Positions 1,400 to 64,000 of a stretch of DNA of 64,000 bases are shown piece after piece. The notes under the pieces were generated by a model, which saw nothing but the letters and a program-made list of their open reading frames with translations, ran no database searches and was not told where the DNA came from. The DNA lies in NCBI RefSeq assembly GCF_047663525.1, contig NC_092617.1, positions 5,639,550 to 5,703,549 on the forward strand, read 5' to 3'. This DNA comes from Anas platyrhynchos. Taxonomy: Eukaryota. The translations under genes and the position numbers were made by a program. The stretch's first letter is position 1, and each line of letters opens with the position of its first letter.

Positions 1400-3300
1400 A
1401 AGGGTTAAATTGTTTGTTTTAAGGTTCGTTTTTTCGTTTTTTTCTCCTTTTTCTGTCAGTTTTTGTGGTTTAATGGGTGTTTTCGAGGTCGGAGCGCTGA
1501 GGTAAGCCTCACACCCCTTCAAACCCTCCTAATTCTCATTTTAAAGCCCAATTTTCCCTTTTAAATTCTATTTTATTTTCTTTAACCACTTAAATTATTT
1601 ATTTTAAACTCTCTTTTTTCATTTTTTTCTCCTTTTCCTGTCAGTTTTTGTGCTTTAATGGCTATTTTCGAACCCGGAGTGCTCAGCTAAGCCTCACACC
1701 CATTCAAATCCTCCTTCTGAACCCTAATTTTCCCTTTTAAATTCCCTTTTTTCCTTCTTTAGCCACTTAAATAATTTATTTTAAACTCTCTTTTTTCATT
1801 TTTTTCTCCTTTTCCTGTCAGTTTTTGTGCTTTAATGGCTATTTTCGAACCCGGAGCGCTCAGCTAAGCCTCACACCCCTTCAAACCCTCCTTCTAAACC
1901 CTAATTTTCCCTTTTAAATTCCCTTTTATCTTCTTTAACCACTTAAATTATTTATTTTAAACTCCCTTTTTTCGTTTTTTTCTTAATTTTCTGTCATTTT
2001 TGGTATTTTAATCTCTATTTCCGACCCCGGAGCGCTCAGGTGAGCCTCGCACCCCTTCAAACCCTCCTCCTTCCCCTTTTAACCCCTAATTTTCTTTTTA
2101 AATTCACTTTTTCGCCTTTTAACTAACTAATTATCCATTTTAACTTCATTTTATTTTATTTTCTTCTCCTTTTTCTGTCAGTTTTTGTGTTTTAATGGCT
2201 ATTTTCGAGCCCGGAACGCTCTCACCCCTTCAACTCCCCCCCCCATTTCCCTTCCTCTTTCCCCTTTTAAGCCCTAATTTTCCCTTTTAAATCAATTTTT
2301 TCCATTTTTAACTAACTTATTATTCTTTTTAATCTTAATTTTTTCGTTTTCTTCTTCATTTTCTGTCACTTTTTGTGTTTTAATGGCTATTTTTGAACCC
2401 AGAACAACACATTTTGTGGAGGCACTCCGGGCACATTTACCACCTCCCCTCCTTTATTATCCCTAAATCTTTTTAAAATCCGCTTTTTTCCACTTAAATT
2501 ATTTATTTTAAACTTCATTTTTTCATTTTTTTCTCAATTTTCTGTCACATTTTGTGTTTTAATGGCTATTTTCGAACCCAGAACACATTTTTGTGGAGGC
2601 GCTCCGGGCACGTTTCCCTCCCTTTTTATCCCTAAATCTTCCTTTTAAAATCCGTTTTTTTTCGACTTAAGCCCTTAAATTATTTATTTTAAACTCTCTT
2701 TTTTGATTTTTTATTCCCTTTTCTGTCACTTTTTGTGTTTTAATGGCTATTTTCGAGCCCGGAACGCTCTCACCCCTTTAACCCCCCCCCCCATTTCCCT
2801 TCCTTTTTCCCCTTTTAACCCCCAAATTTTCCCTTCAAAACCCCATTTTCTTCTTTTTTAAACCCATTTTTTCCCTTTTTCCTTCATTTTTAATTATTTT
2901 CCTTAAATATTAATAACTATTTTTAAGCCCAGAGCGCTCAATAAATCCTCACGCCCCTTTACACCCTCCCCATTTCCCCTCCATTTTTCCCCTTTTTACC
3001 CCCATTTTTCCCCTTTTTACCTCATTTTATCTATTTTTAAACTCCCTTTTTTTCCCTTAAACCCCATTTTTTCCCTTTTTTCCCCTTTTTTCTTACATTT
3101 TTAATTTTTAATCCCTTTCTTCAATCCTAGAGCCCTCACGCCCCCTCAACCCACCTTTTATCCCCATTTTTTACCCCAATTTCCCCTCTTTTTCCCCCTT
3201 TTCACCCCCAATTTTCCCTTTAAACCCCTTTTTTTCCCTCATTTTCCCCCTTTTTTCTTTTATTTGATTAATTTTTGATAAATTCCGATTTCCAAGCCCT
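1400..3300. repeat. ~180-bp satellite, about 10 tandem monomers (conserved core ...CTGTCAGTTTTTGTGCTTTAATGGCTATTTTCGAACCCGGAGCGCTCAG...), diverging towards 3300
   Basis: Monomer restarts at ~1440, 1620, 1800, 1980, 2160, 2340, 2520, 2700. Confidence 0.85.
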
Positions 3301-3785
3301 GAGCACCCAGATGAGGCTCTGCCTGGGTAAATTTCACCATTTTTACGCTTTTTTACAGCTTTTCGTCGCAATAAACACCCCGTGCTTGTGCCAAAAAGCC
3401 CCAAAAGCTGAAATTTGGGGTAAAATCTTTAAAAAATGGTAAAAAATAATAAAAACAGTTTAAAAAAAGAGCAGATTCCCATTTTTCTCAGTCACAGCGC
3501 CACGGGCGAGCTTAAAAGTGGGTTAAAAGCGGGGATTTTTGGTAAATATCTTTTTAAGGGGGGTTAGGAGCAGAAAATGATTAAAAATGGGCAAAAAGGG
3601 TGAAAAATTTTGGGGGATTTTGGGTTTTTTACCTCAGCGCTGAGCTGAGGGGGCTGCTCCCGGCTTTACAGCGCGGTTTGGAGCCCTGGGCTGGGGTTAA
3701 AAGCCAGGGGGAGGAAAAGGATTAAAAATAGGTATTAAATAATGATTAAAAATGTAATAAAATGATAAAAAACGCCGATTTTGCC

Positions 3786-4227
3786 TCATTTTGGGATGTT
3801 TCTTGGGGAGGGGGGGGGGAGGAAGCGCTGAGGCGCCGCCATTTTGAGTGTGGCGCCCAACCCGGCCACAGGGCGGCGCCATTTTGGTTGTGGCATTGCC
3901 CATATATGGAGCGGGGCGGGCGAACGGTGGCTTCCTATTGGTCGGATTTTCGCGGGGCGGTGGAACCCTGCGCTCCTATTGGTCGGATTTTCGCGGGCTA
4001 GGCCGCCATCTTGAGTGTGGCAGCGCCCGCGGGGATGAGGGGGCCGCCATCTTGGGTGCGGCGATGCCCATATATGGAGCGGGGCGGGCGAAGCGTGGCT
4101 TCCTATTGGTCGGTTTTTCGCGCGCTCGGGCGCCATCTTGAGTGCGGCGCCGCCATCTTGGGAAGGTCGCGGGGGCCAAACCGGAAAAGGGGGCAACCGG
4201 AAGTGGGGGGGCGTGGCCACGGCAGCA
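3786..4227 (+). promoter_or_regulatory. TTC5: TTC5 proximal promoter: tandemly duplicated ~168-bp unit carrying two perfect CArG boxes (CCATATATGG at 3900..3909 and 4068..4077), three inverted CCAAT boxes (CCTATTGGTCGG at ~3933, ~3974, ~4100) and about six YY1-like GCCGCCAT(C/T)TTG motifs
   Basis: Motifs read directly; located immediately 5' of the TTC5 ATG at 4228. Confidence 0.6.
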
Positions 4228-4311
4228 ATGGCGGCGGCCGAGGAGGAGGCGGCGGCGGCGGCCGAGGGGGACGGGGAAGGGGGCGACGAGGAGGCCCTGA
4301 GGGCCCTGGAG
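4228..4311 (+). CDS. TTC5: TTC5 coding exon 1 (MAAAEEEAAAAAEGDGEGGDEEALRALE), ATG at 4228, donor GTGGGG
   Basis: Acidic N-terminus matches human MMADEEEEVKPILQKLQE; phase 0 into exon 2. Confidence 0.7.
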
Positions 4312-7300
4312 GTGGGGGGGGGCTGGGGGGAGGGGCTGGTTGCCATGGAGACCGGGGGGGGAGGGGGGGTTGCTATGGGGCCTAAGGGGGGGGGCGAGGC
4401 CTGGTTGCCATGGAAACGGGGCCTAGAGGGGGACAAGGCCTGGTTGCAATGGAGATTTTGGGTGAAAAAGTCCCATTTCTATGGAGATTTGGGGTGTCAG
4501 GGCCTGGTTGCCATGGAAACGGGGCCTAGAGGGTGACAAGGCCTGGTTGCTGTGGAGATTTGGGGTGAAAAAGTCCCATTTCTATGAAGATTTTGGGGTA
4601 AAAAAGCATGGTTTCCATGGAAACGAGGCCTAGAGGGGTACAAAACCCAGTTGCTATGGAGATTTGGGGTGACAAGGCCTGGTTGCCATGGAAACGAGGC
4701 CTAGAGGGTGACAAAACCCGGTTGCCATGGAGATTTGGGGTGAAAAAGCCTGGTTTCCATGGAAACGGGGAGATTTGGAGTGAAAAAGTCCCGTTTCTAT
4801 GGTAATTTGGGGTGAAAAAGCCTGGTTTCCATGGAAACGAGGCCTAAAAGGGGACAAGGCCTGGTTGCTATGGAGATTTGGGGTGAAAAAGTCCCATTTC
4901 TGTGGCAATTTGGGGTGACAGGGCCTGGTTGCCATGGAAACGAGGCCTAGAGGGGACAAGGCCTGGTTGCTATGGAGATTTGGGGTGAAAAAGTCCCATT
5001 TCTATGGCAATTTGGGATGACAGGGCCTGGTTGCCATGGAAACGAGGCCTAGAGGGGGACAAAACCCGGTTGCCATGGAGATTTGGGGTGACAAGGCCCC
5101 GTTTCTATGGAGATTTGGGGGTGACAGGGCCTGGTTGCCATGGAAACGAGGCCTAGAGGGGACAAGGCCTGGTTGCCATGGAGATTTGGGGTGAAAAAGC
5201 CTGGTTTCCATGGAAACGGGGAGATTTGGGGTGAAAAAGTCCCGTTTCTATGGAAATTTGGGGTGACAGGGCCTGGTTGCCATGGAAACGAGGCCTAGAG
5301 GGGGACAAGGCCTGGTTGCTGTGGAGATTTGGGGTGAAAAAGTCCCGTTTCTATGGAGATTTGGGGGTGACAGGGCCTGGTTGCCATGGAAACGGGGTGA
5401 TTTTGGGGTGATTTGGGGTGAAAAAGTCCCGTTTCTATGGAAATTTGGGGGTGACAGGGCCTGGTTGCCATGGAAACGAGGCCTAGAAGGTGACAAGGCC
5501 CCGTTTCCATGGTGATTTGGGGTGAAAAAGTCCCGTTTCTATGGAGATTTGGGGTGTCAGGGTCTGGTTGCCATGGAAACGGGGAGATTTGGGGTGAAAA
5601 AATCCCGTTTCTATGGTAATTTGGGGGTGACAGGGCCTGGTTGCCATGGAAACAAGGCCTAGAGGGTGACAAAACCCGGTTGCTATGGAGATTTGGGGTG
5701 AAAAAGTCCCGTTTCTATGGAGATTTTGGGGTAAAAAAGCATGGTTTCCATGGAAACGAGGCCTAGAGGGGTACAAAACCCAGTTGCTATGGAGATTTGG
5801 GGTGACAAGGCCTGGTTGCCATGGAAACGGGGTGATTTTGGGGTGATTTGGGGTGAAAAAGTCCTGTTTCTATGGAAATTTGGGGTGACAAGGCCTGGTT
5901 GCCATGGAAACGAGGCCTAGAGGGGACAAGGCCTGGTTGCTGTGGAGATTTGGGGTGAAAAAGTCCCGTTTCTATGGAGATTTGGGGGTGACAGGGCCTG
6001 GTTGCCATGGAAACGAGGCCTAGAGCTGACAAGGCCCCGTTTCCATGGTGATTTGGGGTGAAAAAGTCCCATTTCTATGGTAATTTGGGGTGAAAAAGCC
6101 TGGTTTCCATGGAAACGGGGAGATTTGGGGTGAAAAAGTCCCGTTTCCATGGAAATTTGGGGTGACAGGGCCTGGTTGCCATGGAAACGAGGCCTAGAGG
6201 GGACAAGGCCTGGTTGCTGTGGAGATTTGGGGTGAAAAAGTCCCATTTCTATGACAATTTGGGGTGACAGGGCCTGGTTGCCATGGAAACGAGGCCTAGA
6301 GGGGGACAAGGCCTGGTTGCCATGGAGATTTGGGGGTGACAGGGCCTGGTTGCCATGGAAACGGGGTGATTTGGGGTGACAAGGCCCCGTTTCTATGGAG
6401 ATTTGGGGTGAAAAAGTCCCATTTCTATGGAGATTTGGGGTGACAAGGCCTGGTTGCCATGGAAACGCGGCCTAGAGGGGGACAAGGCCTGGTTGCTATG
6501 GAGATTTGGGGTGAAAAAGTCCCGTTTCTATGGAAATTTGGGGTGACAGGGCCTGGTTGCCATGGAAACGGGGCCTAGAGGGTGACAAGGCCCGGTTGCC
6601 ATGGAGATTTGGGGTGAAAAAGCTTGGTTTCCATGGAAACGGGGTGATTTGGGGTGACAAGGCCCCGTTTCTATGGAGATTTGGGGTGAAAAAGTCCCAT
6701 TTCTATGACAATTTGGGGTGACAGGGCCTGGTTGCCATGGAAACGAGGCCTAAAAGGGGACAAGGCCTGGTTGCCATGGAGATTTTGGGGTGACAGGGCC
6801 CGGTTGCCATGGAAACGGGGTGATTTGGGGTGATTTGGGGTGACAAGGCCCCGTTTCTATGGTAATTTGGGGTGTCAGGGCCTGGTTGCCATGGAAACGG
6901 GGCCTAGAGGGGGACAAGGCCTGGTTGCTATGGAGATTTGGGGTGAAAAACTCCCATTTCTATGAAAATTTGGGGTGTCAGGGCCTGGTTGCCATGGAAA
7001 CGGGGCCTAGAAGGGGACAAGGCCTGGTTGCTATGGAGATTTGAGGTGAAAAAGTCCCGTTTCTATGGAAATTTCGGGTGACAAGGCCTGGTTGCCATGG
7101 AAACGAGGCCTAGAGGGGGATGAGGCCTGGTTGCTATGGAGATTTGGGGTGAAAAACTCCCATTTCTATGAAAATTTGGGGTGTCAGGGCCCGGTTGCCA
7201 TGGAAACTAGGCCTAAAAGGGGACGAGGCCTGGTTGCTATGGAGATTTGGGGTGAAAAAGTCCCATTTCTGTGACAATTTGGGGTGACAAGGCCTGGTTG

Positions 7301-10300
7301 CCATGGAAACGGGGCCTAGAGGGGGACAAAACCCGGTTGCCATGGAGATTTGGGGTGAAAAAGCCTGGTTTCCATGGAAACAGGGAGATTTGGGGTGAAA
7401 AAGCCCCATTTCTATGGCAATTTGGGGTGTCAGGGCCCGGTTGCCATGGAAACTAGGCCTAGAGGGGGACAAGGCCTGGTTGCTGTGGAGATTTGGGGTG
7501 AAAAAGTCCCGTTTCTATGGAGATTTTGGGGTGAAAAAGCATGGTTTCCATGGAAACGGGGAGATTTGGGGTGAAAAAGTCCCGTTTCTATGGCAATTTG
7601 GGTTGACAGGGCCTGGTTGCCATGGAAACGAGGCCTAGAAGGTGACAAGGCCCCGTTTCCATGGTGATTTGGGGTGAAAAAGTCCCGTTTCTATGACAAT
7701 TTGGGGTGACAGGGCCTGGTTTCCATGGAAACGGGGAGATTTGGGGTGAAAAAGTCCCATTTCTATGACAATTTGGGGTGACAAGGCCTGGTTGCCATGG
7801 AAACGAGGCCTAGAGGTGACAAGGCCCGGTTGCCATGGAGATTTTGGGGTGAAAAAGCCTGGTTTCCATGGAAACGGGGTGATTTGGGGTGACAAGGACC
7901 CGTTTCTATGGAGATTTGGGGTGAAAAAGTCCCATTTCTATGACAATTTGGGGGTGACAGGGCCTGGTTGCCATGGAAACGGGGTAATTTGGGGTGACAA
8001 AACCCGGTTGCCATGGAGATTTGGGGTGAAAAAGTCCCGTTTCTATGACAATTTGGGGTGAAAAAGCCTGGTTTCCATGGAAACGGGGTGATTTGGGGTG
8101 ACAAAGTCCCGTTTCTATGGAGATTTTGGGGTGACAAGGCCCGGTTGCCATGGTGACGACCCCAAAATCCCTTTTTTTCCCCCCAGGAGATGGTGGCCGA
8201 GCTGTACCGCTTCAAGGACAGCCTGCGGCTGGGTGACAACCCCCAGAAGGGTGACAACGACACCCCCATGGGTGACAACAACCCCACAGGTGACAAAAAT
8301 ACCCCTAAAGGTGACAAAAACACCCCCACGGGTGACAAAAATACCCCTAAGGGTGACAAAAACAACCCCAAGGGTGACAAAAACACCCCCACGGGTGACA
8401 AAAACACCCCTAAGGGTGACAAAAACACCCCAAAAGGTGACAAAAACACCCTAAAAGTGACAAAAACACCCCTAAGGGTGACAAAAACACCCCGAAGGGT
8501 GACAAAAACACCCCCAGGGTGACAAAAACACCCCTAAAGGTGACAAAAATACACTAAGGGTGACAAAAACACCCTAAGGGTGACAAAAATACCCCTAAAG
8601 GTGACAAAAACACCCCCAGGGTGACAAAAATACCTCTAAGGGTGACAAAAATACCCCAAAGGGTGACAAAAATACCCCTAAGGGTGACAAAAACACCCCT
8701 AAAAGTGACAAAAACACCCAAAAAATGACAAAAACACCCTAAAAGTGACAAAAACACCCCAAAAGGTGACAAAAACACCCTAAGGGTGACAAAAAAACCC
8801 AAAGGGTGACAAAAACACCCCTAAGGGTGACAAAAACACCCTAAAAGTGACAAAAATACCCCTAAGGGTGACAAAAACACCCTAAAAGTGACAAAAATAC
8901 CCCTAAGGGTGACAAAAATACCCTAAGGGTGATAAAAACACCCCCAGGGTGACAAAAACACCCCCACAGGTGACAAGAAGACCCCCACGGGTGACAAAAA
9001 CCCCCCAAAAAGTGACACCGACCCCCAAAAAGGTGACGGCGGTCGCCTGGCGGCGCTGGAGGAGGAGATGGAGCGCACGGTGCAGCGCATGGAGGCCGTG
9101 CACGGTGAGCCCCAAAATCACCCAAAACCCCCGAAAAACCCCACCCATAACCCCAAAACCCTGCCAAAAACCCAAAAACCCTGCCCAAAACCCAAAAACC
9201 CCACCCAGAACCCCAAAAACCCTGCCCACAACCCAAAAAACCCCACCCATAACCCCAAAACCCTGCCCATAACCCAAAAAACCCCACCCATAACCCCAAA
9301 AACCCACGCACAACCCCAAAAAACCCGCGCACAACCCAAAAACCCCCACCGAAAACCCAAAAACCCCCACCCATAACCCAAAAAACCCCACCCATAATCC
9401 AAAAACCCCACCCACAACCCAAAAAAACCCGCCCATAACCCCAAAAAAACCCACCCAGAACCCCAAAACTCCGCCCACAACCCAAAAAACCCCGCCCAGA
9501 ACCCAAAAACCCCACCCAAAACCCAAAAAACCCCACCCAGAACCCAAAAACCCCACCCAAAACCCAAAAAACCCCACCCATAACCCAAAAACCCCGCTTA
9601 CAACCCAAAAACCCCCGCCCAAAACCCCAAAACCCTGCCCACAACCCAAAAAACCCCACCCATAACCCAAAAAACCCCACCCAGAACCCAAAAACTCTGC
9701 CCATAACCCAAAAAACCCCGCATACAACCCCAAAAACCCCGCCCACAACCCAAAAAACCCCGCCCAGAACCCAAAATCCTGCCAAAAACCCAAAAACCCC
9801 ACCCACAACCCAAAAAACCCTGCCCACAACCCAAAAACCCCGCCCAGAACCCCAAAAACCCCGCCCACAACCCCAAAAACCCTGCCCACAACCCAAAAAA
9901 CCCCACCCAGAACCCCAAAAACCCCGCCCATAACCTAAAAACCCCGTCCAAAACCCAAAAAAACCCCACCCATAACCCAAAAAACCCCGCCCAGAACCCA
10001 AAAAACCCCGCCCACAACCCAAAAAACCCCACCTACGACCCCAAAAACCCCACCCAAAACCCAAAAACCTGCCCAGAACCCAAAAAATCCCACCCATAAC
10101 CCAAAAAACCCCACCCAAAACCCAAAAAACCCCACCCACAACCCCAAAAAACCCCGCCCAGAACCCCAAAAACCCCGCCCAGAACCCAAAGACCCCACCC
10201 ATAACCCAAAAAACCCCACCCAAAACCCAAAAACCCCGCCCAGAACCCCAAAACCCCACCCAAAACCCAAAAAACCCCGCCCAGAACCCAAAAACCCCGC

Positions 10301-13300
10301 CCAGAACCCAAAAACCCCGCCCAGAACCCAAAAACCCCGCCCAGAACCCAAAAAACCCTGCCAAAAACCCAAAAAAACCCGCCCAGAACCCAAAATCCTG
10401 CCAAAAACCCAAAAACCCCACCCACAACCCCTAAAACCCCGCCTACAACCCCAAAAACCCCACCCATAACCCAAAAACCCCACCCATAACCCAAAAACTC
10501 CACCCATAACCCAAAAAACCCCACCCCAAACCCAAAAACCCCACGCACAACCCAAAAACCCCACCCATAACCCAAAAAACCCTGCCCACAACCCAAAAAA
10601 CCCCACCCAAAACTCAAAAACCCCGCCCAGAACCCCAAAAACCCCGCCCACAACCCAAAAAACTCCTCCCACAACCCAAAAAACCCCGCCCAGAACCCAA
10701 AACCCTGCCAAAAACTCCAAAAGCCCCGCCCACAATGATTAGGCCACGCCTACAAGCCCCAAAGCCCCGCCCACAACCCCCACAAGCCCCGCCCACAAGG
10801 CCCCAAACCACGCCCCGTTAAGGCCACGCCCCGTCTATCCTTGCCTGCCCCTTATTTGGCTCTGGCCACGCCCCCTCCGTCTAAACCACGCCCCCTCCAC
10901 CAAGCCACGCCCCCTCCATTAAACCACACCCCCTCCATTAGGCCCCGCCCCCTCCTTTAAGCCACGCCCCCTTCCCATAAGCCACACCCCTATTAGACCC
11001 CGCCCACCTCCATTAAGCCCCACCCCCCTATTAGACCGCGCCCCCTCCCCCAAGCCCCGCCCCGTCCATTAAGCCCCACCCCTTTAATTAAGCCCCGCCC
11101 CCTCCCTTAAGCCCCGCCCCCTCCCTTTAACCCCACCCTAACCCCACCCCCATATTAAGCCCCGCCCACCTCCCCTAAGCCCCGCCCCCTCCCCTAAGCC
11201 ACGCCCCCTATTAGACCCCACCCACCTCCATTAAGCCCCGCCCACCTCCATTAGGCCACACCCCTCCCTTAAGCCCCGCCCCTCCCTTAAACCCCGCCCA
11301 CCTCCATTAAGCCCCTCCCACCTCCCTTAAGCCCCACCCCCCCCAAGCCCCTCCCCCTTTAAGCCCCGACCCCTCCCCTTAAGCCCCACCCCCAATATTA
11401 AGCCCTGCCCACCTCCATTAAGCCCCGCCCACCTCCATTAAGCCCCGCCCACCTCCCCAAGCCCCGCCCACCTCCATTAAGCCCCACCCCTTCCCTTAAG
11501 CCCCACCCACCTCCTCCAAGCCCCGCCCACCTCCATTAAGCCCCACCCCCAATATTAAGCCCCGCCCACCTCCCCCAAGCCCCGCCCACCCCCTTTTTTG
11601 AAGCCCCGCCCCCTTTTTGAAGCCCCGCCCCCTCAGTGTCCCCCCAGGGCCGGGGCCGGGCGCTGCTGCTGCGGGCGCGGGCGCTGGAGGCGGCCCCGGG
11701 GGGCCGGGGGAGGGCGGAGGCGGCGCTGGGCAGGGCCCTGAAGCTGCAGCCGGGGCTGGCGCCCGCCTGGACCCGCCTGGGGGAGGCCCGGTGGAGCCAC
11801 GGGGACATCACGGGGGCCACGAGGTGCTTCCAGGGGGCGCTGGCGCATGTAAGTAACCCTATAGAGGATCTGGGGGGGATTTTGGGGTTATATCGGGGGT
11901 TATAGGGTCAAAAAGGGGGGTTTAGGGTTGATATTGGGGGTTATGGGGTCAGTATGGGGTGTTATAGGGTCAATATTGGGGGTTATAGGGTCAGTATCAG
12001 GCGTTATGGGGTCAATTTTGGGGTTATAGGGTCATTATTGGGGGATATGGGGTCAAGATCAGGGGTTATAGGATCGATATCAGGGGTTATAGGGTCAATA
12101 TTGGGGGTTATGGGGTCAATATTGGGGGTTATAGGGTCAATATCAGGGGTTATAGGGTCGATTTTGGGGTTATAGGGTCGATATTGGGGCTTATAGGGTC
12201 AATATTGGGGGTTATGGGGTTGATTTAAGGGTTATAGGGTCAATACCAGGGGTTAAAGGATCACTTTTGGGGTTATAGGGTCAATATTGGGGGTTATAGA
12301 ATCAATATCAGGGGTTATAGGGTCCGTATGGGGTGTTATAGGGTTGATTTAGTGGTTATAGGGTCAATATTGGGGGTTATAGGGGGATTTGGGGGGGATT
12401 TGGGGGGTTATAGGGTCGATATCAGGGGTTATAGGGTCAATAGTGGGGGTTATAGGGTCAATATCAGGGGTTATGGGGTCAATATTGGGGTTATAGGGTC
12501 AGGATCAGGGGTTATGGGGTCGATTTCAGGGGTTATAGGGTCAAAAAGAGGGGGTTTAGGGTTGATTTTGGGGTTATAGGGTCGATATCAGGGGTTATAG
12601 GGTCAATATTGGGGGTTATGGGGTCAATATTGGGGGTTATGGGGTCAAAAAGAGGGGTTTTAGGGTCGATTTTGGGGTTATAGGGTCGATATTGGGGGTT
12701 ATAGGGTCAGTATCAGGGGTTATGGGGTCACTATGGGGAGTTAAAGGGTCGATTTTGGGGTTATAGGGTCAATATCAGGGGTTGTAGGGTCGATATCAGG
12801 GGTAATGGGGTCAAAAAGAGGGGTTTTAGGGTCAGTTTAGGGGTTATAGGGTCAATTTAGGGGTTATAGGGTCGATTTAGGGGTTATGGGGTCAGTATGG
12901 GGGTTATGGGGTGGATTTAGGGGATTTGGGGCGATTTGGGGTCAATTTGGGGTGGATGTAGGGGATTTTGGGGGGATTTGGTGTGGATTTGGGGTCTTTT
13001 GGGGTGCATTTGGGGGATTTGGGGCTATTTAGGGTGGATTCGGGGTGGATTTCGGGGATTTAGGGTCATTTGGGGTGGATTCGGGGCGGATTCGGGGTCA
13101 TTTGGGGTAGATTTGGGGGATTTGGGGTCTTTCGGGGTGGATTTGGGGGATTTGGGGTCAATTTGGGATTGATGGGTGGATTTAGGGGATTTGGGGTGGA
13201 TTTGGGGGATTTGGGGTCATTTGGGAGATTTGGGGGGGATTTGGGGTGGATTTGGGGCAGATTCAGGGTGAATTTGGGGGATTTAGGGTCAATTTGGGCT

Positions 13301-16300
13301 AGATTTGGGGGATTTGGGGTCATTTTGGGTGGATTTGGGGTGGATTTAGTGCATTTGGTTTTTTTCCATTTTTTTTTTTTCCTGTTTTTTTTCCTTTTTT
13401 TTGTTTTTTTTTTCCCTTTTTTGTTTTTTTCCCTTTTTGCTTTTTTTCCCTCTTTTATTTTTTTTCCTTTTTTTTCCCATTTTTGTTTTATTCTTTTTTT
13501 TGTTTTTTTCCCTTTTTTGTTTTTTTTTCCCTTTTTTTCCCATTTTTGTTTTTTTTTCCTTTTTTTTCCCATTTTTGTTTTTTTTCCCTTTTTTTCCCTT
13601 TTTTGTTTTTTTTCCCTTTTTTTTTCCCTTTTTATTTTTTTTTCCTTTTTTCTTTTTTTTCCCTTTTTTGTTTTTTTTTCCCTTTTTTTCCCTTTTTTGT
13701 TTTTTTCCCTTTTTTTTCCCTTTTTTGTTTTTTTTTTTCCCGTTTTTGTTTTTTTTTCCCCATTTTTGTTTTTTTCCCCTTTTTTTCCCTTTTTCTTTTC
13801 CCTTTTTTATTTTTTTTCCATTTTTTCCCGTTTTTCTTTTTTTCCCCCTTTTAGTGTTTTTTCCCTTTTTTTTATTTTTTCCCATTTTCGTTGTTTTTTC
13901 CCTTTTTTGTTTTTTTCCCTCTTTTATTTTTTTTCCTTTTTTTTTCCCCTTTTTGTTTTTTTTTCCATTTTTTTCCCTTTTTTTCTTTTTTCCCATTTAT
14001 TTCCTTTTTATTTTTTTCCCTTTTTTTTTCTTTTTTCCCTCTTTTATCTTTTCCCTTTTTTCTTTTTTTTCCCTTTTTCTTTTTTTTCCCTTTTTTCTTT
14101 TTTTTCCCTTTCTTTTTTTTCCCATTTTTGTTTTTTTTCCCATTTTTGTTTTTTTTCTCTTTTTTTTTTTTTTCCATTTTTTTTCCCCGTTTTTTGTTTT
14201 TCCATTTTTTCCCCTTTTTTTTCTTTTTTCCCCTTTTTTTTCTTTTTTCCCCTTTTTTTCCATTTTTTCCCCTTTTTTTTCTTTTTCCCCCTTTTTTTTC
14301 TTTTTCCCATTTTTCCCATTTTCCCCCTTTTTCCCCCCAAAAGTGCGACGACCCCGAAGCCCACCGCCTGCTGTCCATGGCCCTTCGCCGGGGGGGGTCC
14401 CTGCAGGAGGGGCTGGCCCAGGCCGAGGCCGCCGTGCGCTGCGACCCCACAGCCGGCAGCTCCTGGTGTGAGTGGGGGGCTTACGGGGTCCTTATAGGGT
14501 CGGGGGGCTTTTGGGGGGTCCCTATGGGGTCAGCGGGTCGGGGTCAACAGGGTTTGGTCGGGACGGTTTTGGGGTTAAATGCTGCGATTTTGGGGTCAAT
14601 CGGGCTAAAGGGGGAGGTTCTAGGGATAAAAGATCTTTTAGGGTCGTTTTGGGGTTTTATAGGGTCGGGGGGCTTCTGGGGGGTCCCTATGGGGTCAGCG
14701 GGTCGGGGGCAATAGGGTTTGGTCGGGATGGTTTTGGGGTTAAATGCTGCGATTTTGGGGTCGATCGGGCTAAAGGGGGAGGTTCTAGGATTGAAAAATC
14801 TTATGGGGTCGTTTTGGGGTTTTATAGGGTCGGGGGGCTTCGGGGGGGTCCCTATGGGGTCAGCGGGTCGGGGCCAATAGGGTTTGGTCAGGACGGTTTT
14901 GGGGTTAAATGCTGCGATTTTGGGGTCGATCGGGCTAAAGGGGGAGGTTCTAGGGATAAAAGATCTTTTAGGGTCGTTTTGGGGTTTTATAGGGTCGGGG
15001 GGCTTTTAGGGGGTCCCTATGGGGTCAGCGGGTTGGGGTTAAGGGGGGTTAATGGGGAGGTTTTTGGGGTTAAATGCTGCGATTTTGGGGTCGATCGGGC
15101 TAAAGGGGGAGGTTCTAGGGCTTTGGGAACATTTAGGGTCGTTTTGGGGTTTTATAGGGTCGGGGGGCTTCAGGGGGGTCCCTATGGGGTCAGCGGGTCG
15201 GGGTTAAGGGGGGTTAATGGGGAGGTTTTTGGGGTTAATTCATGCGATTTTGGGGTCGATCGGGCTAAAGGGGGAGGTTCTAGGGATAAAAGATCTTTTA
15301 GGGTCGTTTTGGGGTTTTATAGGGTCGGGGGGCTTTTGGGGGGTCCCTATGGGGTCACCGGGTCGGGGGCAATAGGGTTTGGTCGGGGGGGTTTTGGGGT
15401 TAATTCATGCGATTTTGGGGTCGATCGGGCTAAAGGGGGAGGTTCTAGGGCTAAAAGATCTTTTAGGGTCGTTTTGGGGTTTTATAGGGTCGGGGGGCTT
15501 TTGGGGGGTCCCTATGGGGTCAGCGGGTCGGGGGCAATAGGGTTTGGTGGGGAGGATTTTGGGGTTAATTCATGCAATTTTGGGGTCGATCGGGCTAAAG
15601 GGGGAGGTTCTAGGGATAAAAGATCTTTTAGGGTCGTTTTGGGGTTTTATAGGGTCGGGGGGCTTCTGGGGGGTCCCTATGGGGTCAGCGGGTCGGGGTC
15701 AATAGGGTTTGGTGGGGACATTTTTGGGGTTAATTCATGCGATTTTGGGGTCGATCGGGCTAAAGGGGGAGGTTCTAGGGCTAAAAGATGTTTTAGGGTC
15801 GTTTTGGGGTTTTATAGGGTCGGGGGGCTTTTGGGGGGTCCCTATGGGGTCAGCGGGTCGGGGTTAAGGGGGGTTAATGGGGAGGTTTTTGGGGTTAAAT
15901 GCTGCGATTTTGGGGTCGATCGGGCTAAAGGGGGAGGCTCTAGGGCTATGAGAATATTTAGAGTCGTTTTGGGGTTTTATAGGGTCGGGGGGCTTTTGGG
16001 GGGTTCCTATGGGGTCAGCGGGTCGGGGTCAATAGGGTTTGGTCAGGAGGTTTTTGGGGTTAATTCCTGCGATTTTGGGGTCGATCGGGCTAAAGGGGGA
16101 GGTTCTAGGGCTTTGGGAACATTTAGGGTCGTTTTGGGGTTTTATAGGGTCGGGGGGCTTTTAGGGGGTCCCTGTGGGGTCAGCGGGTCGGGGTCAATAG
16201 GGTTTGGTGGGGAGGTTTTTGGGGTTAAATGCTGCGATTTTGGGATCAATCGGGCTAAAGGGGGAAGTTCTAGGGATAAAAGATCTTTTAGGGTCGGTTT

Positions 16301-19300
16301 GGGGTTTTATAGGGTCGGGGGGCTTTTGGGGGGTCCCTGTGGGGTCAGGGGGTGTTTATGGGGTCGTTATAGGGTCGGGGGGCTTTATGGGGTCTTATAG
16401 GGTCGTTATTGGGTCGGGAGGTTTTTATAGGGTTTTGGGGTTTTTATGGGGTTTTGGGGTTTTTATGGGGTCCTTATAGGTTCGGGGGGGTTTTATGGGG
16501 TCAGGGGGGTTTTATGGGGTCGGGGAGGTTTTTGGGGTCAGGGGGTGGTTATGGGGTCGTTATGGGGTCGGGGGGCTTTATGGGGTCTTATAGGGTCGTT
16601 ATAGGGTCGGGAGGTTTTTATAGGGTTTTGGGGTTTTTATGGGGTTTTGGGGATTTTATGGGGTCCTTATAGGTTCGGGGGGGGTTTATGGGGTCAGGGG
16701 GTGTTTATGGGGTCGTTATAGGGTCGGGGGGCTTTATGGGGTCTTATAGGGTCGGGAGGTTTTTATAGGGTTTTGGGGTTTTTATGGGGTTTTGGGGTTT
16801 TTATGGGGTCCTTATAGGTTCGGGGGGGGTTTATGGGGTCAGGGGGTGTTTATGGGGTCGTTATAGGGTCGGGGGGCTTTATGGGGTCTTATAGGGTCGG
16901 GAGGTTTTTATAGGGTTTTGGGGTTTTTATGGGGTTTTGGGGTTTTTATGGGGTCCTTATAGGGTCGGGGGGCTTTTATGGGGTCGGGGGGGTTTTATGG
17001 GGTCGGGGGTTGTTTATGGGGTCGTTTTGGGGTCCCTAAATCCCCGTTTTTTCCCCCAGACGTGCTGGGCAACGCCTACGTCTCGCTCTTCTTCGCCGGG
17101 GGGCAGAGCCCCGAGGCCGCTCGCCGCGCGCTGGGCGCCTACGCGCAGGCGGTAGGCGGCCCTATAAATTTTTGGGGGACCCTATAGGGCCGGGGGGGGA
17201 CCCTATAGGGCCGGGGGGGACCCTATAGGGCCTTTGGGGTCCCTATAAGGCCTGGGGGGGCGTTATGGGGCAGGGGGAGGGCGTTATAGGGCCGGGGAGG
17301 GCGTTATAGGGCCGGGGAGGGGTTATAGGGTCAGGGGGTCTTGTAGGGTCCCTATAGGGCCGGGGGTCGCTATGGGGTCTCTATGGGGCCCTATAGACTC
17401 TATAGGGTCGCTATAGGGCCGGGGGTGTCTATGGGGTCCCTATGGGGCCCTATGGTCCCTATAGGGCCTGGGGCTGCTATGGGGTCTCTATGGGGCCCTA
17501 TAGTCGCTATAGGGTCCCTATAGGGCCAGGAGTGTCTATGGGGTCGTTATGGGGCCCTATGGCCACTATAGGGCCTGGGGCTGCTATGGGGTCTCTATGG
17601 GGCCCTATAGTCGCTATAGGGTCACTATAGGGCCCTATAGGGCTGGAGTTTGCTATGGGGTCCCTATAGGGCCAGGGGGTTCCATGGGGTCGTTATGGGG
17701 CCCTATGGCCACTATAGGGCCTGGGGCCGCTATGGGGTCTCTATGGGGCCCTATAGACTCTATAGGGTCACTATAGGGCCCTATAGGGCTGGAGTTTGCT
17801 ATGGGGTCCCTATAGGGCCGGGGGTGTCTATGGGGTCCCTATGGGGCCCTATGGTCCCTATAGGGCTTGGGGACGCTATGGGGTCTCTATGGGGCCCTAT
17901 AGACTCTATAGGGTCACTATAGGGCCAGGGCTGTCTATGGGGTCCCTATAGGGCCAGGGGGTTCCATGGGGTCCCTATGGGGCCATACGGCCACTATAGG
18001 GCCTGGGGCCGCTATGGGGTCTCTATGGGGCCCTGTAGTCTCTATAGGGTCACTGTGGGGCCCTATAGGGCTGGAGTTTGCTATGGGGTCCCTATAGGGC
18101 CAGGGGTGTCTATGGGGTCTCTATGGGGCCCTATGGCTGCTATAGGGCCTGGGGCCGCTATGGGGTCTCTATGGGGCCCTATAGACTCTATAGGGTCACT
18201 ATAGGGCCCTATAGGGCTGGAGTTTGCTATGGGGTCCCTATAGGGCCAGGGGTGTCTATGGGGTCCCTATAGGGCCGGGGGTGTCTATGGGGTCCCTATA
18301 GGGCCTGGGGCTGCTATGGGGTCTCTATGGGGCCCTATAGTCGCTATAGGGTCCCTATAGGGCCAGGGGTGTCTATGGGGTCATTATGGGGCCATACGGC
18401 CACTATAGGGCCTGGGGCCGCTATGGGGTCTCTATGGGGCCCTATAGACGCTATAGGGTCACTGTGGGGCCCTACAGCCCCTATAGGGCCCTATGGTCGC
18501 TATGGGGCCCTATGGGGCCTAGCGGGGCCTATTGGGGCCTATGGGGCAGGCCCCGTTGCTAGGGCCCGGCCCGGTTGCTAGGGGGCGTGGCCCCACGTCT
18601 CCATGGTAACGAGGCCCCGCCCCCCCCCCCGTCAGGAAAAAATCGACCCCGCCGCCGCAGCCAATCCCGACCTCCACCTCAACCGCGCCACGGTACGGCA
18701 GCCAATGGGGAGCGAGCGGGGGCGGGACTAAGGGCGGGAGGGCGGGGGGGGGAGGCAGCCAATGGGGAGCGAGCGGGGGCGGGACTAGGGGCGGGAGGGA
18801 AGAGCGGCGGGGGAATCAGCCAATGGGGAGCGAGGAGCGGCGCGGCTCAGCCAATGGGCGCGCAGCTGCTGCAGTACCAGGAGCGCTACGGGGCCGCCCT
18901 GGAGGGGCTGGCGCGCGCCGCCGCCTTGGCGCCGGAGTGGGCGGAGCCGCGCATGCGCCACGCGAGGCTCCTCGACTTCCTGGGCCGCCTCTGCGCGTTG
19001 CTGGGCAACCGCGTGAGTGACGGGAGGGGGGGGGGGCGGGGCTTAAAGGGGAAGGGGCGGGGCTTAAGGGAGGGGGCGGGGTTTAAGGGAGGGGGAGGCG
19101 GCGGCCATTTTGGGGGGGGTTTGGGGGAGATTTTGGGGATTTGGGGGTGGTTTTGGGGGGTTTTGGGGGGATTTTAGGGAATTTGGGGGGGATTTGGAGA
19201 GATTTGGGGGATTTGGGGGGGAATTAGAGGGATTTTGGGGGATTTTAGAGGGATTTTGTTGGAATTTGCAGAATTTGGGGCATTTTGGGGGACTTTGGGG

Positions 19301-42649: not shown

Positions 42650-43080
42650 GCGCTAATTAAGCCTGGCCGTTAATTAGCGGCGCTAATTACCCATGAATGA
42701 CACCGATTAATTAGGAGGGGACGAGGTTGGGGGGGAGGGGGGGGGGTAATTAAGGAAGGGGGAGGGGCCCCCGGAGCGCTGCGAGGGGCGGGAGCGGCGC
42801 CCCCCCGCCCCCCCCCCTTAATGAGCGGCGCTAATTAGCGGCGCTAATTAACGGGGGGGGGGGGAGGGGCCCCCCTCTTACCGTGGCCGGGGGTCCGGGG
42901 GTGTCCGCGGGTCCGTGGGGAGGGGGGGCGGGGGTGGGGCCCCCCCCATCGGCGCAAAGGGGGCGGGGCTTAAAGGGAGGGGGCGGGGCTTAAGGGAAGG
43001 GGGCGGGGCTTGGGGGAAGGGGGCGGGGCTTGGGGGAAGGGGCGGGGCTTCAAAAATTCGGGGGCTCTCGACCACGACCG
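42650..43080 (-). promoter_or_regulatory. HNRNPC: CpG island with five tandem GGGGGCGGGGCTTAAGGGA GC-box units (42955..43060) and a canonical minus-strand splice donor CACG|GTAAGAG at plus 42881/42880; best candidate for the HNRNPC promoter plus non-coding exon 1
   Basis: The first coding exon of HNRNPC starts with an acceptor (39134), so an upstream 5' exon is required; this is the nearest CpG island on the correct side with a GTAAGA donor on the correct strand. Confidence 0.45.

Positions 43081-52459: not shown

Positions 52460-64000
<11,541 letters not shown>

What the first reader, a model, noticed from the sequence alone, without database searches (positions are those of the whole stretch)
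4330..8160. ~100 tandem RFX X-box-like palindromes in TTC5 intron 1
The dominant subunit contains GGTTGCCATGGAAACG / GGTTGCCATGGAGATT / GGTTGCTATGGAGATT. These are one or two mismatches from the palindromic RFX X-box consensus GTTGCCATGGCAAC (GTNRCC-N0-3-RGYAAC). Functional X-boxes of similar quality drive ciliary genes. A 3.8 kb array of about 100 such sites inside a single intron could act as a transcription-factor sink, or be fortuitous.
Basis: partly seen in the sequence, partly recalled or inferred. Interest (0 to 1): 0.5.

Follow-up and report, generated by a model that had tools for sequence, protein, structure and literature searches.

The report
Duck TTC5 intron repeat mimicking RFX sites
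Intron 1 of the duck TTC5 gene is almost entirely a 3.8 kb tandem repeat whose 109 units each carry a sequence that scores like a genuine RFX transcription-factor site, but it looks like a lineage-specific by-product of the runaway intron repeat expansion typical of small bird chromosomes, not a conserved regulatory element.

Summary
Window 4325-8160 is a higher-order tandem array of 109 units (32-40 bp) that fills TTC5 intron 1 (4312-8186). The gene model reproduces the Anas platyrhynchos RefSeq TTC5 proteins exactly.

With the human RFX2 JASPAR matrix, 108, 96 and 75 units score at or above 0.80, 0.85 and 0.90. Shuffles give 2.1, 0.25 and 0, and the other 60 kb of the window gives 32, 3 and 1. 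Some 14-mers are identical to validated X-boxes (C. elegans xbx-6 and che-11, human MAP1A).

The multiplicity comes from amplification, not from about 100 independent events. The window is 81% tandem repeat, and every TTC5 intron is 89-99% repeat.

Intron 1 holds unrelated repeat units in ostrich, eagle and budgerigar. It holds no repeat in crane or gharial. No ortholog has an X-box there.

The most variable columns are CpG sites, and their decay degrades the motif in class C units.

The best reading is a neutral, duck-lineage intronic minisatellite of the kind described as "sequence stuttering" on avian dot chromosomes, whose founder unit happened to contain an X-box-grade palindrome. RFX occupancy, and any sink, enhancer or silencer effect, remain untested and unsupported by conservation.

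The parts
3900..4227 (+). TTC5 promoter and 5' region. It is CpG-island-like, with repeated GCCGCCATCTTG (YY1-like), CCTATTGG (CCAAT-like) and CCGGAAGTG (ETS-like) motifs. This is context for the array, not part of it.
   Evidence: Sequence read. Over 3701-4311, GC is 0.63 and CpG observed/expected is 1.05, against 0.34 in the array.
4228..4311 (+). TTC5 exon 1, the coding part (MAAAEEEAAAAAEGDGEGGDEEALRALE). The GT donor is at 4312.
   Evidence: 100% match to duck XP_071885811.1. Exact GT-AG model.
4312..8186 (+). TTC5 intron 1, 3875 bp, 99% covered by tandem repeats.
4325..4397 (+). Degenerate leading edge of the array, two to three diverged units. It includes GTTGCCATGGAGAC at 4339, which is identical to the human MAP1A 3' X-box.
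   Evidence: MAP1A sequence from Table S5 of PMC5838959.
4398..8160 (+). Main higher-order tandem array.
- Class A: 39 bp, x28, GTTGCCATGGAAACGAGGCCTAGAGGGGGACAAGGCCTG.
- Class B: 32 bp, x27, GTTGCTATGGAGATTTGGGGTGAAAAAGTCCC.
- Class C: 32 bp, x39, GTTTCTATGGAAATTTGGGGTGACAGGGCCTG.
- Class D: 40 bp, x15, GTTTCCATGGAAACGGGGAGATTTGGGGTGAAAAAGTCCC.
Units are arranged mostly as ABC (103 bp), ABDC (143 bp) and DC (72 bp).
   Evidence: Self-identity is highest at lags 103, then 32, then 71/72.
4404..4506 (+). Example of one 103-bp ABC higher-order unit. Its class A unit carries GTTGCCATGGAAAC, which scores 0.98-0.99 with RFX2 MA0600.1.
5204..5243 (+). Example class D unit with the perfect 14-bp palindrome GTTTCCATGGAAAC, identical to the validated C. 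elegans xbx-6 X-box.
4588..4696 (+). 109-bp block repeated exactly at 5721-5829, 1133 bp away. This is evidence of recent multi-unit block duplication or conversion inside the array.
8161..8186 (+). Non-repeat 3' stub of intron 1, carrying the polypyrimidine tract and AG acceptor (...CCCTTTTTTTCCCCCCAG).
8187..8310 (+). TTC5 exon 2. Its 3' part already runs into the 21-bp, 7-codon GGTGACAAAAACACCCC repeat. Isoform X2 uses a donor 21 nt upstream, at 8289.

Best explanation
The feature is a duck-lineage intronic minisatellite with higher-order structure. It belongs to the class of local repeat expansion recently described as 'sequence stuttering' in genes on avian dot chromosomes.

Proposed history (inferred). 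A short founder segment of about 32-40 bp in intron 1 happened to contain a GTTGCCATGG[A/T]GAC-type palindrome. It was amplified by slippage, unequal exchange or gene conversion. It then diversified into four unit classes and was re-amplified as 72-, 103- and 143-bp blocks and larger ones. The array now fills the intron except for the splice signals.

On this reading the roughly 100 X-box-grade motifs are copies of one chance event, not the product of selection for RFX binding.

What is shown: the anatomy of the array, the repeat context of the gene and window, and the lack of conservation in orthologs. What is inferred: the amplification mechanism and neutrality.

RFX proteins may well bind such sequences incidentally if the chromatin is open. 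No conserved regulatory role is indicated.
For: - Repeat context. The window is 81% tandem repeat, and all nine TTC5 introns measured are 89-99% repeat, each with its own unit. This matches published descriptions. Chicken dot-chromosome introns are filled with imperfect tandems of tens to hundreds of bp that stay inside introns (PMC12954441). In zebra finch, more than 70% of dot-chromosome intron sequence is minisatellite, with units in multiples of 10-11 bp (bioRxiv 10.1101/2025.10.17.683159).
- Confinement. The array stops about 13-18 bp from the donor and 26 bp from the acceptor.
- Orthologs. Intron 1 is a 29-bp repeat in ostrich, a 21-bp repeat in the eagle Morphnus and an 11/22-bp repeat in budgerigar. 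It is about 80 bp and repeat-free in crane, and repeat-free in gharial.
- No shared origin detected. The duck unit shows no above-null similarity to any ortholog intron 1. No ortholog intron 1 has an RFX2 site scoring 0.88 or more.
- Contrast. The ACTGGGAGGG arrays in the 3' introns are shared across birds, so orthologous arrays can persist. The lack of sharing at intron 1 is therefore informative.
- Recent activity. There are internal block duplications, including a 109-bp exact repeat 1.1 kb apart.
- Variation pattern. The most variable columns are CpG sites. The G1-to-A change in CGTTTC degrades the motif in about 40% of class C units. The non-X-box segment ATTTGGGGTG is as invariant as the core.
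- Methylation signature. CpG observed/expected is 0.34 in the array against 1.05 in the promoter.
- Chance at the unit level. A shuffled higher-order unit carries a site scoring 0.90 or more at 2.5e-4. Across thousands of arrays and hundreds of transcription-factor motifs, such coincidences are expected (inference).
Against: - The motif quality is unusually high. Thirty units score 0.98-0.99 with human RFX2 MA0600.1, above every validated human X-box scored (0.82-0.95). Some 14-mers are identical to validated sites.
- In classes A and D the 14-bp core is about ten-fold and about four-fold less variable than the rest of the unit (0.010 vs 0.105; 0.018 vs 0.077). This could reflect constraint. 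However, only a few variable columns are involved, and they define subfamilies rather than independent events.
- The first 1.3 kb or so of the array lies inside the 'permissive' window of -2300 to +1400 reported for functional human X-boxes (PMC5838959).
- At relative score 0.95 or more the array holds 35 sites. Random sequence of bird-genome size would give about 0-30. Locally it is therefore not a negligible pool of strong sites.
- Neither dot-chromosome membership in duck nor length polymorphism between individuals was verified.
Confidence: 0.75

Rival explanations
1. Functional RFX platform. The amplified X-boxes are occupied by RFX factors and act on TTC5. They could work as an intronic enhancer, for example in testis or multiciliated cells. 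They could work as a silencer placed downstream of the transcription start, as reported for the two X-boxes in human MAP1A exon 1. Or they could titrate RFX as a sink.
For: - 75 units score 0.90 or more and 35 sites score 0.95 or more with human RFX2 MA0600.1. Shuffles give zero.
- Some units are identical to validated sites: xbx-6, che-11 and MAP1A.
- The array starts about 100 bp downstream of the ATG, within the reported positional window for functional X-boxes.
- The core is less variable than the flanks in classes A and D.
- RFX1 is reported to recruit DNMT1, HDAC1 and SUV39H1 (abstract of PMC3046540). A repressive outcome is therefore conceivable.
Against: - No X-box is present in TTC5 intron 1 of five other sauropsids, and there is no shared array.
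- The array is one of nine stuttered introns in the gene.
- CpG decay is eroding the motif in class C.
- CpG observed/expected of 0.34 suggests germline methylation rather than a protected regulatory element.
- No literature link between TTC5 and RFX was found.
- As a genome-wide sink, 75 sites compare with an estimated 1900-3200 chance sites of equal score per 1.05 Gb, plus the real targets. That is only a few percent.
Confidence: 0.12
2. Structure-driven repeat. The palindromic core matters because it forms hairpins or cruciforms in DNA, or stem-loops in the pre-mRNA. These would promote slippage and expansion, or influence splicing. On this reading the resemblance to an X-box is irrelevant.
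For: - About 41 units have 8-10 of 11 arm positions complementary, and 12 have a perfect 14-bp palindrome.
- A 206-nt stretch folds at -38.3 kcal/mol as single-stranded DNA. Shuffles average -26.1, giving z = -3.95.
- Six of 119 non-redundant arrays in the window carry perfect palindromes of 12 bp or more, each rare in shuffles of its own unit.
- Dot-chromosome introns are reported to be enriched in inverted repeats and other non-B motifs.
Against: - Most arrays in the window have no notable palindrome. Only 11 of 119 fall at or below the 0.05 shuffle fraction, against about 6 expected.
- 66 of the 109 units (classes B and C) have lost the palindrome yet were amplified just as much.
- No experiment here bears on structure formation.
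Confidence: 0.1
3. Assembly artefact. The array length or organisation comes from misassembly of a repetitive region.
For: Such regions are hard to sequence and assemble (PMC12954441 and bioRxiv 10.1101/2025.10.17.683159). No reads were available to check this.
Against: - Units are diverged and ordered in a non-trivial higher-order pattern with degenerate edges.
- The flanking exons match the RefSeq proteins exactly.
- Comparable arrays occur in independent assemblies of other birds.
Confidence: 0.03

Closest known systems
Intronic 'sequence stuttering' minisatellites of avian dot-chromosome genes (Hron et al. 2026, PMC12954441; zebra finch T2T non-B DNA study, bioRxiv 10.1101/2025.10.17.683159)
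   Same: - The intron is almost entirely replaced by imperfect tandem copies of a local motif of tens of bp.
- The repeats are confined between the splice sites.
- Each intron of the gene has its own unit.
- Unit lengths are near multiples of 10-11 bp (32, 40, 72, 103, 143).
- The surroundings are GC-rich and repeat-saturated.
- Repeats are absent in a non-avian ortholog (gharial).
   Different: - This case is in duck, whereas the phenomenon was described mainly in chicken and zebra finch.
- It has clear four-class higher-order organisation.
- The unit carries a 14-bp palindrome of X-box quality.
- No exon-derived seed was detected: the best exon hit is 20.3 bits, against the paper's 42.1-bit threshold. 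It would therefore be the purely intronic subtype.
- Length polymorphism and dot-chromosome assignment were not checked.
RFX X-box promoter elements (for example human MAP1A exon-1 X-boxes, C. elegans xbx-6 and che-11)
   Same: The sequence is identical or near-identical, and PWM scores equal or exceed those of validated sites. The position is close to and downstream of the start of the gene, as in MAP1A.
   Different: - Functional X-boxes are single or paired and usually conserved between species. Here there are 109 copies with no ortholog conservation.
- The strict vertebrate consensus RGYAAC is violated in the right half-site (GGAAAC or GGAGAT).
- No binding or expression evidence exists.
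Tandem repeats that act as clustered transcription-factor binding platforms or decoys, such as CTCF-bound macrosatellites and GGAA microsatellites bound by EWS-FLI1 (from general knowledge, not checked here)
   Same: Dozens of high-scoring sites for one factor in one array, created by repeat amplification.
   Different: Those cases have demonstrated occupancy and phenotypic or expression effects. Here occupancy is unknown, and the comparative evidence argues against selected function.
Higher-order-repeat satellites (alpha-satellite-like organisation)
   Same: Diverged monomer classes are arranged in multi-monomer blocks that are themselves tandemly repeated, with degenerate edges.
   Different: The scale is far smaller (3.8 kb). 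The array is intronic and euchromatic, with no centromeric context.

Membership tests
RFX X-box cis-element | Sequence matches an RFX position weight matrix at the level of validated sites | tested here: met
   Human RFX2 MA0600.1: 108 of 109 units score 0.80 or more and 75 score 0.90 or more. Validated human sites score 0.82-0.95. With the C. elegans matrix, 64 units reach the median of the real sites. Some 14-mers are identical to the xbx-6, che-11 and MAP1A sites.
RFX X-box cis-element | Strict vertebrate consensus GTNRC(C/N)-N0-3-RGYAAC | tested here: not met
   Only 1 match in the array. The right half-site is GGAAAC or GGAGAT, which breaks the Y position.
RFX X-box cis-element | Position near the transcription start (robust window -500 to +500; permissive window -2300 to +1400; PMC5838959) | tested here: inconclusive
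   The array spans roughly +100 to +3930 from the ATG. Only the first third lies in the permissive window. The transcription start site itself is unknown.
RFX X-box cis-element | Conservation of the motif at the orthologous position | tested here: not met
   No site scoring 0.88 or more in intron 1 of ostrich, eagle, crane, budgerigar or gharial.
RFX X-box cis-element | RFX occupancy, and expression that depends on the X-box or on RFX | not testable with these tools
   No ChIP, EMSA or expression data were available. No paper in the library links TTC5 to RFX.
Avian intronic sequence stuttering | Intron largely composed of imperfect tandem repeats with units of tens to hundreds of bp | tested here: met
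   Intron 1 is 99% covered by TRF arrays. Units are 32-40 bp with higher-order periods of 72, 103 and 143 bp.
Avian intronic sequence stuttering | Repeat blocks confined to the intron, with exons intact | tested here: met
   The array spans 4325-8160 inside intron 4312-8186. The spliced model reproduces the RefSeq proteins exactly.
Avian intronic sequence stuttering | Gene-wide and region-wide phenomenon, with different local motifs in different introns | tested here: met
   All nine introns measured are 89-99% repeat and the window is 81% repeat. The X-box core k-mers are unique to intron 1.
Avian intronic sequence stuttering | Located on a dot chromosome | tested here: inconclusive
   The duck protein maps to a 6.3 Mb record and the ostrich ortholog to a 7.0 Mb record. 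The composition and repeat load fit a dot chromosome, but the chromosome class was not verified.
Avian intronic sequence stuttering | Extensive length variation of the intron between individuals | not testable with these tools
   Only one haplotype was available.
Avian intronic sequence stuttering | Seed copied from the adjacent exon (the exon-stuttering subtype only) | tested here: not met
   The best exon-to-intron-1 BLASTN hit is 20.3 bits, below the published 42.1-bit threshold. The neighbouring 21-bp array does overlap exon 2 and its donor.
Transcription-factor sink or decoy array | The number of strong sites is large relative to the genome-wide pool | tested here: inconclusive
   There are 75 sites scoring 0.90 or more, against about 1900-3200 expected by chance per 1.05 Gb. 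There are 35 sites scoring 0.95 or more, against about 0-30 by chance. The real duck genome was not scanned.
Known structured RNA family (miRNA or snoRNA cluster in an intron) | Match to an Rfam covariance model at its gathering score | tested here: not met
   The best hits score 18-24 bits against gathering scores of 45-150.

The most novel reading that the evidence does not exclude
A single high-affinity X-box just downstream of the TTC5 promoter was amplified in the duck lineage into about 75-100 RFX sites. This would create a species-specific RFX super-cluster with one of two effects. It could couple TTC5, the tubulin-autoregulation factor, to the RFX ciliogenic or spermiogenic programme. 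Alternatively it could nucleate RFX1-dependent repression, or locally sequester RFX. More generally, it would show that intron 'stuttering' on bird dot chromosomes can manufacture dense homotypic transcription-factor site clusters and so rewire gene regulation quickly.
Probability: 0.1. Interest if true: 0.65.

Novelty: new member of a known kind. Interest (0 to 1): 0.3.

Why it matters
If the array is only what it appears to be, it is a clean, fully annotated example in duck of the intron repeat expansion recently described in chicken and zebra finch. It has clear higher-order structure, and the comparative series shows the same intron filled independently by unrelated units in different bird lineages.

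It is also a warning for motif-based scans. In these regions one chance motif is copied a hundred-fold, so shuffle controls report enormous 'enrichment' that reflects amplification rather than selection.

If RFX does bind, it would be a natural experiment on how repeat expansion creates homotypic binding-site clusters next to a promoter.

Tried and rejected
- Exon origin of the unit. By eye, the 3' end of exon 1 and the 5' end of exon 2 resembled the unit. BLASTN of the exons against intron 1 gave at most 20.3 bits, so this was rejected.
- Common origin with ortholog intron-1 repeats or with the crane unique intron. Local alignments were all within the shuffle null.
- General enrichment of palindromes in the window's arrays. 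Enrichment was only mild: 11 of 119 arrays at or below the 0.05 shuffle fraction.
- A G-quadruplex explanation for this array. Only 2 canonical G4 motifs lie in intron 1, against 152 in the gene.
- Known RNA families. Nothing approached a gathering score.
- The same unit elsewhere. Two exact-pattern scans of metagenome contigs found nothing. A protein search with a 130-aa ORF from the array found no relatives.
- The duck reference locus and the kiwi and pigeon loci. These could not be fetched.
- tblastx of the window against ortholog loci. The output was swamped by repeat-against-repeat hits and served only to locate exons and shared 3'-intron arrays.
- Species guess. I first assumed chicken. 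The exon matches show the window is Anas platyrhynchos.

Full report
**What is there**

Window 4325-8160 is a tandem array. TRF reports nested periods of 32, 40, 71/72, 103, 143 and 278 bp. Anchoring on the conserved core NTT[GT]C[CTA][AG]TG gives 109 consecutive units with no gaps. Unit lengths are 30-40 bp, plus three units of 50-51 bp.

The units fall into four classes.
- A: 39 bp, x28, GTTGCCATGGAAACGAGGCCTAGAGGGGGACAAGGCCTG.
- B: 32 bp, x27, GTTGCTATGGAGATTTGGGGTGAAAAAGTCCC.
- C: 32 bp, x39, GTTTCTATGGAAATTTGGGGTGACAGGGCCTG.
- D: 40 bp, x15, GTTTCCATGGAAACGGGGAGATTTGGGGTGAAAAAGTCCC.

They are ordered mostly as ABC (103 bp), ABDC (143 bp) and DC (72 bp). Ungapped self-identity peaks at lags 103, 32 and 71/72. 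There are long internal duplications, including a 109-bp exact repeat at 4588 and 5721. The edges of the array (4325-4397 and the last unit at 8144) are degenerate.

**Gene context and species**

A probe recalled from memory (human TTC5) located TTC5 exons on the + strand. A database search then returned Anas platyrhynchos TTC5 and its isoform X1.

Every exon of XP_071885811.1 matches the window at 100% inside the exon bounds. A GT-AG model built from the window translates exactly to both RefSeq isoforms. Its exons are 4228-4311, 8187-8310 (X2: 8289), 8970-9104, 11637-11848, 14344-14467, 17060-17151, 18636-18692, 18866-19012, 21325-21500, 22252-22396 and 23735-23854.

The window is therefore duck, and the array fills TTC5 intron 1 (4312-8186). 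It leaves about 13-18 bp at the donor and 26 bp (polypyrimidine tract and AG) at the acceptor.

**Are the motifs X-box-like beyond chance?**

Yes. I used two matrices taken from papers rather than from memory.

The first was built from 30 validated 14-bp C. elegans X-boxes (Table 1 of PMC3245922).
- Leave-one-out scores of the real sites have a median of 17.8 bits and a lower quartile of 16.3 bits.
- In the array, 72 units reach 16.3 bits and 64 reach 17.8 bits.
- In the remaining 60 kb of the window, one site does.

The second was the human RFX2 ChIP-seq matrix JASPAR MA0600.1, printed in the supplement of PMC5838959.

| Relative score | Array units | Rest of window | Dinucleotide shuffles (mean) |
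|---|---|---|---|
| 0.80 or more | 108 | 32 | 2.08 |
| 0.85 or more | 96 | 3 | 0.25 |
| 0.90 or more | 75 | 1 | 0.00 |

Validated human X-boxes score 0.82-0.95 on the same scale.

Several array 14-mers are identical to validated sites.
- GTTTCCATGGAAAC (x12) is the xbx-6 site.
- GTTGCCATGGAGAT (x9) is the reverse complement of the che-11 site.
- GTTGCCATGGAGAC (at 4339) is the human MAP1A 3' X-box.

Some details need correcting.
- The ...GGAGAT variants are 3-4 mismatches from the perfect palindrome, not one or two.
- The strict consensus GTNRCC-N0-3-RGYAAC matches only once.
- Only classes A and D (43 units) are true or near palindromes.

**Why the multiplicity is not evidence of function**

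The 109 sites are copies of one founder, so shuffling the array tests amplification rather than selection. The relevant null is at the unit level. A shuffled 103-bp higher-order unit carries a site scoring 0.90 or more with probability 2.5e-4, and a site scoring 0.95 or more with probability 5e-5.

This window alone has about 119 non-redundant arrays. Repeat-rich bird microchromosomes hold very many more, and there are hundreds of known transcription-factor motifs. A near-perfect match of some array to some factor is therefore expected. This last step is inference, not a measurement.

**Context: every intron looks like this**

TRF covers 81% of the window. All nine TTC5 introns measured are 89-99% tandem repeat, each with a different unit.

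The X-box core k-mers occur only in intron 1. The unit's other half (TTTGGGGTGAA) is shared with arrays at 25-37 kb.

This matches the recently described 'sequence stuttering' of chicken dot-chromosome genes. That description covers introns filled with imperfect tandems of tens to hundreds of bp, confined to introns, polymorphic in length, and sometimes seeded from the adjacent exon (PMC12954441). It also matches the zebra finch T2T finding that more than 70% of dot-chromosome intron sequence is minisatellite, with units in multiples of 10-11 bp. The periods here (32, 40, 72, 103, 143) fit that pattern.

For intron 1, an exon-derived seed was tested and rejected: the best hit was 20.3 bits, against the paper's 42.1-bit threshold.

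**Comparative test**

TTC5 loci were fetched for five other species, and intron 1 was examined in each.

| Species | Intron 1 length | Repeat content |
|---|---|---|
| Ostrich | about 890 bp | 29-bp unit GGACGCCTGGGCCCCGCGGGAGCATCCCC, x29.5 |
| Crested eagle (Morphnus) | about 940 bp | 21-bp unit GGGGGAGGGGCCTTTTTGTGA, x40 |
| Budgerigar | about 1.2 kb | TTTTAACCCC, x103 |
| Whooping crane | about 80 bp | none |
| Gharial | about 2.7 kb | none |

- No ortholog has an RFX2 site scoring 0.88 or more in intron 1.
- The duck unit has no above-null similarity to any of these sequences.
- By contrast, the ACTGGGAGGG-type arrays of the 3' introns are shared by duck, ostrich, eagle, crane and quail. 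Orthologous arrays can persist, so their absence at intron 1 is informative.
- The Montezuma quail contig lacks the 5' end of the gene. The duck reference locus could not be fetched. How far the array extends within Galloanserae is therefore unknown.

**Signs of constraint or decay**

- Within classes A and D, the 14-bp core diverges from the class consensus less than the rest of the unit (0.010 vs 0.105 and 0.018 vs 0.077).
- In class C, core and rest diverge equally (0.126 vs 0.119).
- The non-X-box segment ATTTGGGGTG is as invariant as the core.
- The most variable columns are CpG sites: ACG[A/G]GG, and CGTTTC changing to CATTTC. The second change removes G1 of the motif in about 40% of class C units.
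- CpG observed/expected is 0.34 in the array against 1.05 in the promoter.

Together these fit germline-methylated, largely neutral sequence. The low variability in classes A and D rests on a handful of subfamily-defining columns, and I do not regard it as evidence of selection.

**Other readings considered**

- Structure. The palindrome could matter structurally. A 206-nt stretch folds better than shuffles as single-stranded DNA (z = -3.95). Six of 119 arrays have perfect palindromes of 12 bp or more. However, most arrays have none, and the non-palindromic B and C units were amplified equally.
- G-quadruplexes. These do not explain this array: it has 2 canonical motifs against 152 in the whole gene.
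- Known RNA families. None is matched.
- Other copies. No similar unit was found in metagenome contigs. No protein-database relatives of an ORF from the array were found.
- Literature. No paper in the library links TTC5 with RFX.

**The sink idea**

Random sequence of bird-genome size would contain about 1900-3200 windows scoring 0.90 or more, and about 0-30 scoring 0.95 or more. The array holds 75 and 35 respectively.

As a genome-wide sink it would add at most a few percent at moderate stringency. It is a non-trivial local cluster of very strong sites. Incidental RFX binding is therefore plausible, and a local effect on TTC5 cannot be excluded. Nothing in the comparative or contextual evidence requires one.

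**Verdict**

- The feature is a new member of a known kind: a duck-lineage intronic minisatellite of the avian stuttering type, with higher-order structure, whose unit happens to be X-box-grade.
- Confidence in this reading is 0.75.
- The functional RFX reading is about 0.1 and needs ChIP, methylation and population long-read data.

Noticed in passing
window 8187-9104 (exon 2, intron 2, exon 3; 21-bp array at 8247-9017): The 21-bp array (unit AAGGGTGACAAAAACACCCCT, seven codons, read as GDKNTPK) begins inside the exon 2 coding sequence. The frame stays open for about 85 codons. The repeated AG|GTGACA serves as the splice donor. RefSeq isoforms X1 and X2 (471 and 464 aa) differ by exactly one unit, with donors at 8310 and 8289. 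This looks like the 'exon stuttering' with alternative splice-site use described in PMC12954441.
   Followed up: partly
window 21502-23731; L001 19525-20866; L003 12962-13426; L004 8040-8620; L002 5230-7228: The 3' introns of TTC5 carry ACTGGGAGGG-type arrays of about 10-bp units in duck, ostrich, eagle, crane and quail. Duck and quail also share ACTGGTCC-type arrays. Budgerigar and gharial have neither. The unit resembles the sequence just after the exon 10 donor (AAG|GTAACTGGGAG). The arrays are therefore either ancient or repeatedly re-seeded from a conserved splice-proximal sequence.
   Followed up: partly
window 1-64000: 81% of the window is tandem repeat (403 TRF rows, about 119 non-redundant arrays). 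All nine TTC5 introns measured are 89-99% repeat. The + strand has a strong excess of G over C (19454 vs 13186), and the sign of the skew flips between arrays.
   Followed up: yes
window 3900-4227: The TTC5 promoter region has GCCGCCATCTTG (YY1-like) about five times, CTCCTATTGGTCGG (CCAAT-like) twice, and CCGGAAGTG (ETS-like). CpG observed/expected is 1.05.
   Followed up: partly
window 18597-18610: The only strong X-box-like site outside the array is GTCTCCATGGTAAC. It scores 20.3 bits with the C. elegans matrix and 0.90 or more with RFX2. It lies about 25 bp upstream of exon 7.
   Followed up: no
window 14492-16353, 17506-18547, 42819-42854, 57708-57975: Other arrays have units containing long perfect palindromes: TAAAAGATCTTTTA, CTATAGGGCCCTATAG and GGCCCTATAGGGCC, CGCTAATTAGCG, and TTTGGGCCCAAA. 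Each is rare in shuffles of its own unit.
   Followed up: partly
window 9130-11634, 12-548 and 18697-18858: Other arrays multiply short promoter-type motifs. GGGCGG GC-box cores occur about 44 times in 9-12 kb, and CCACGCCC occurs 14 times in the first 1 kb. The 158-bp intron at 18702-18859 is made of CAGCCAATGGG plus GC-box units.
   Followed up: partly
L001 4649-4667 (ostrich, about 350 bp upstream of the TTC5 ATG): A single X-box-like site, GGTTGCCGTGGCGAC, scores 0.95 with RFX2. It lies between the upstream RING-finger gene and TTC5. No counterpart was seen in the other loci.
   Followed up: no
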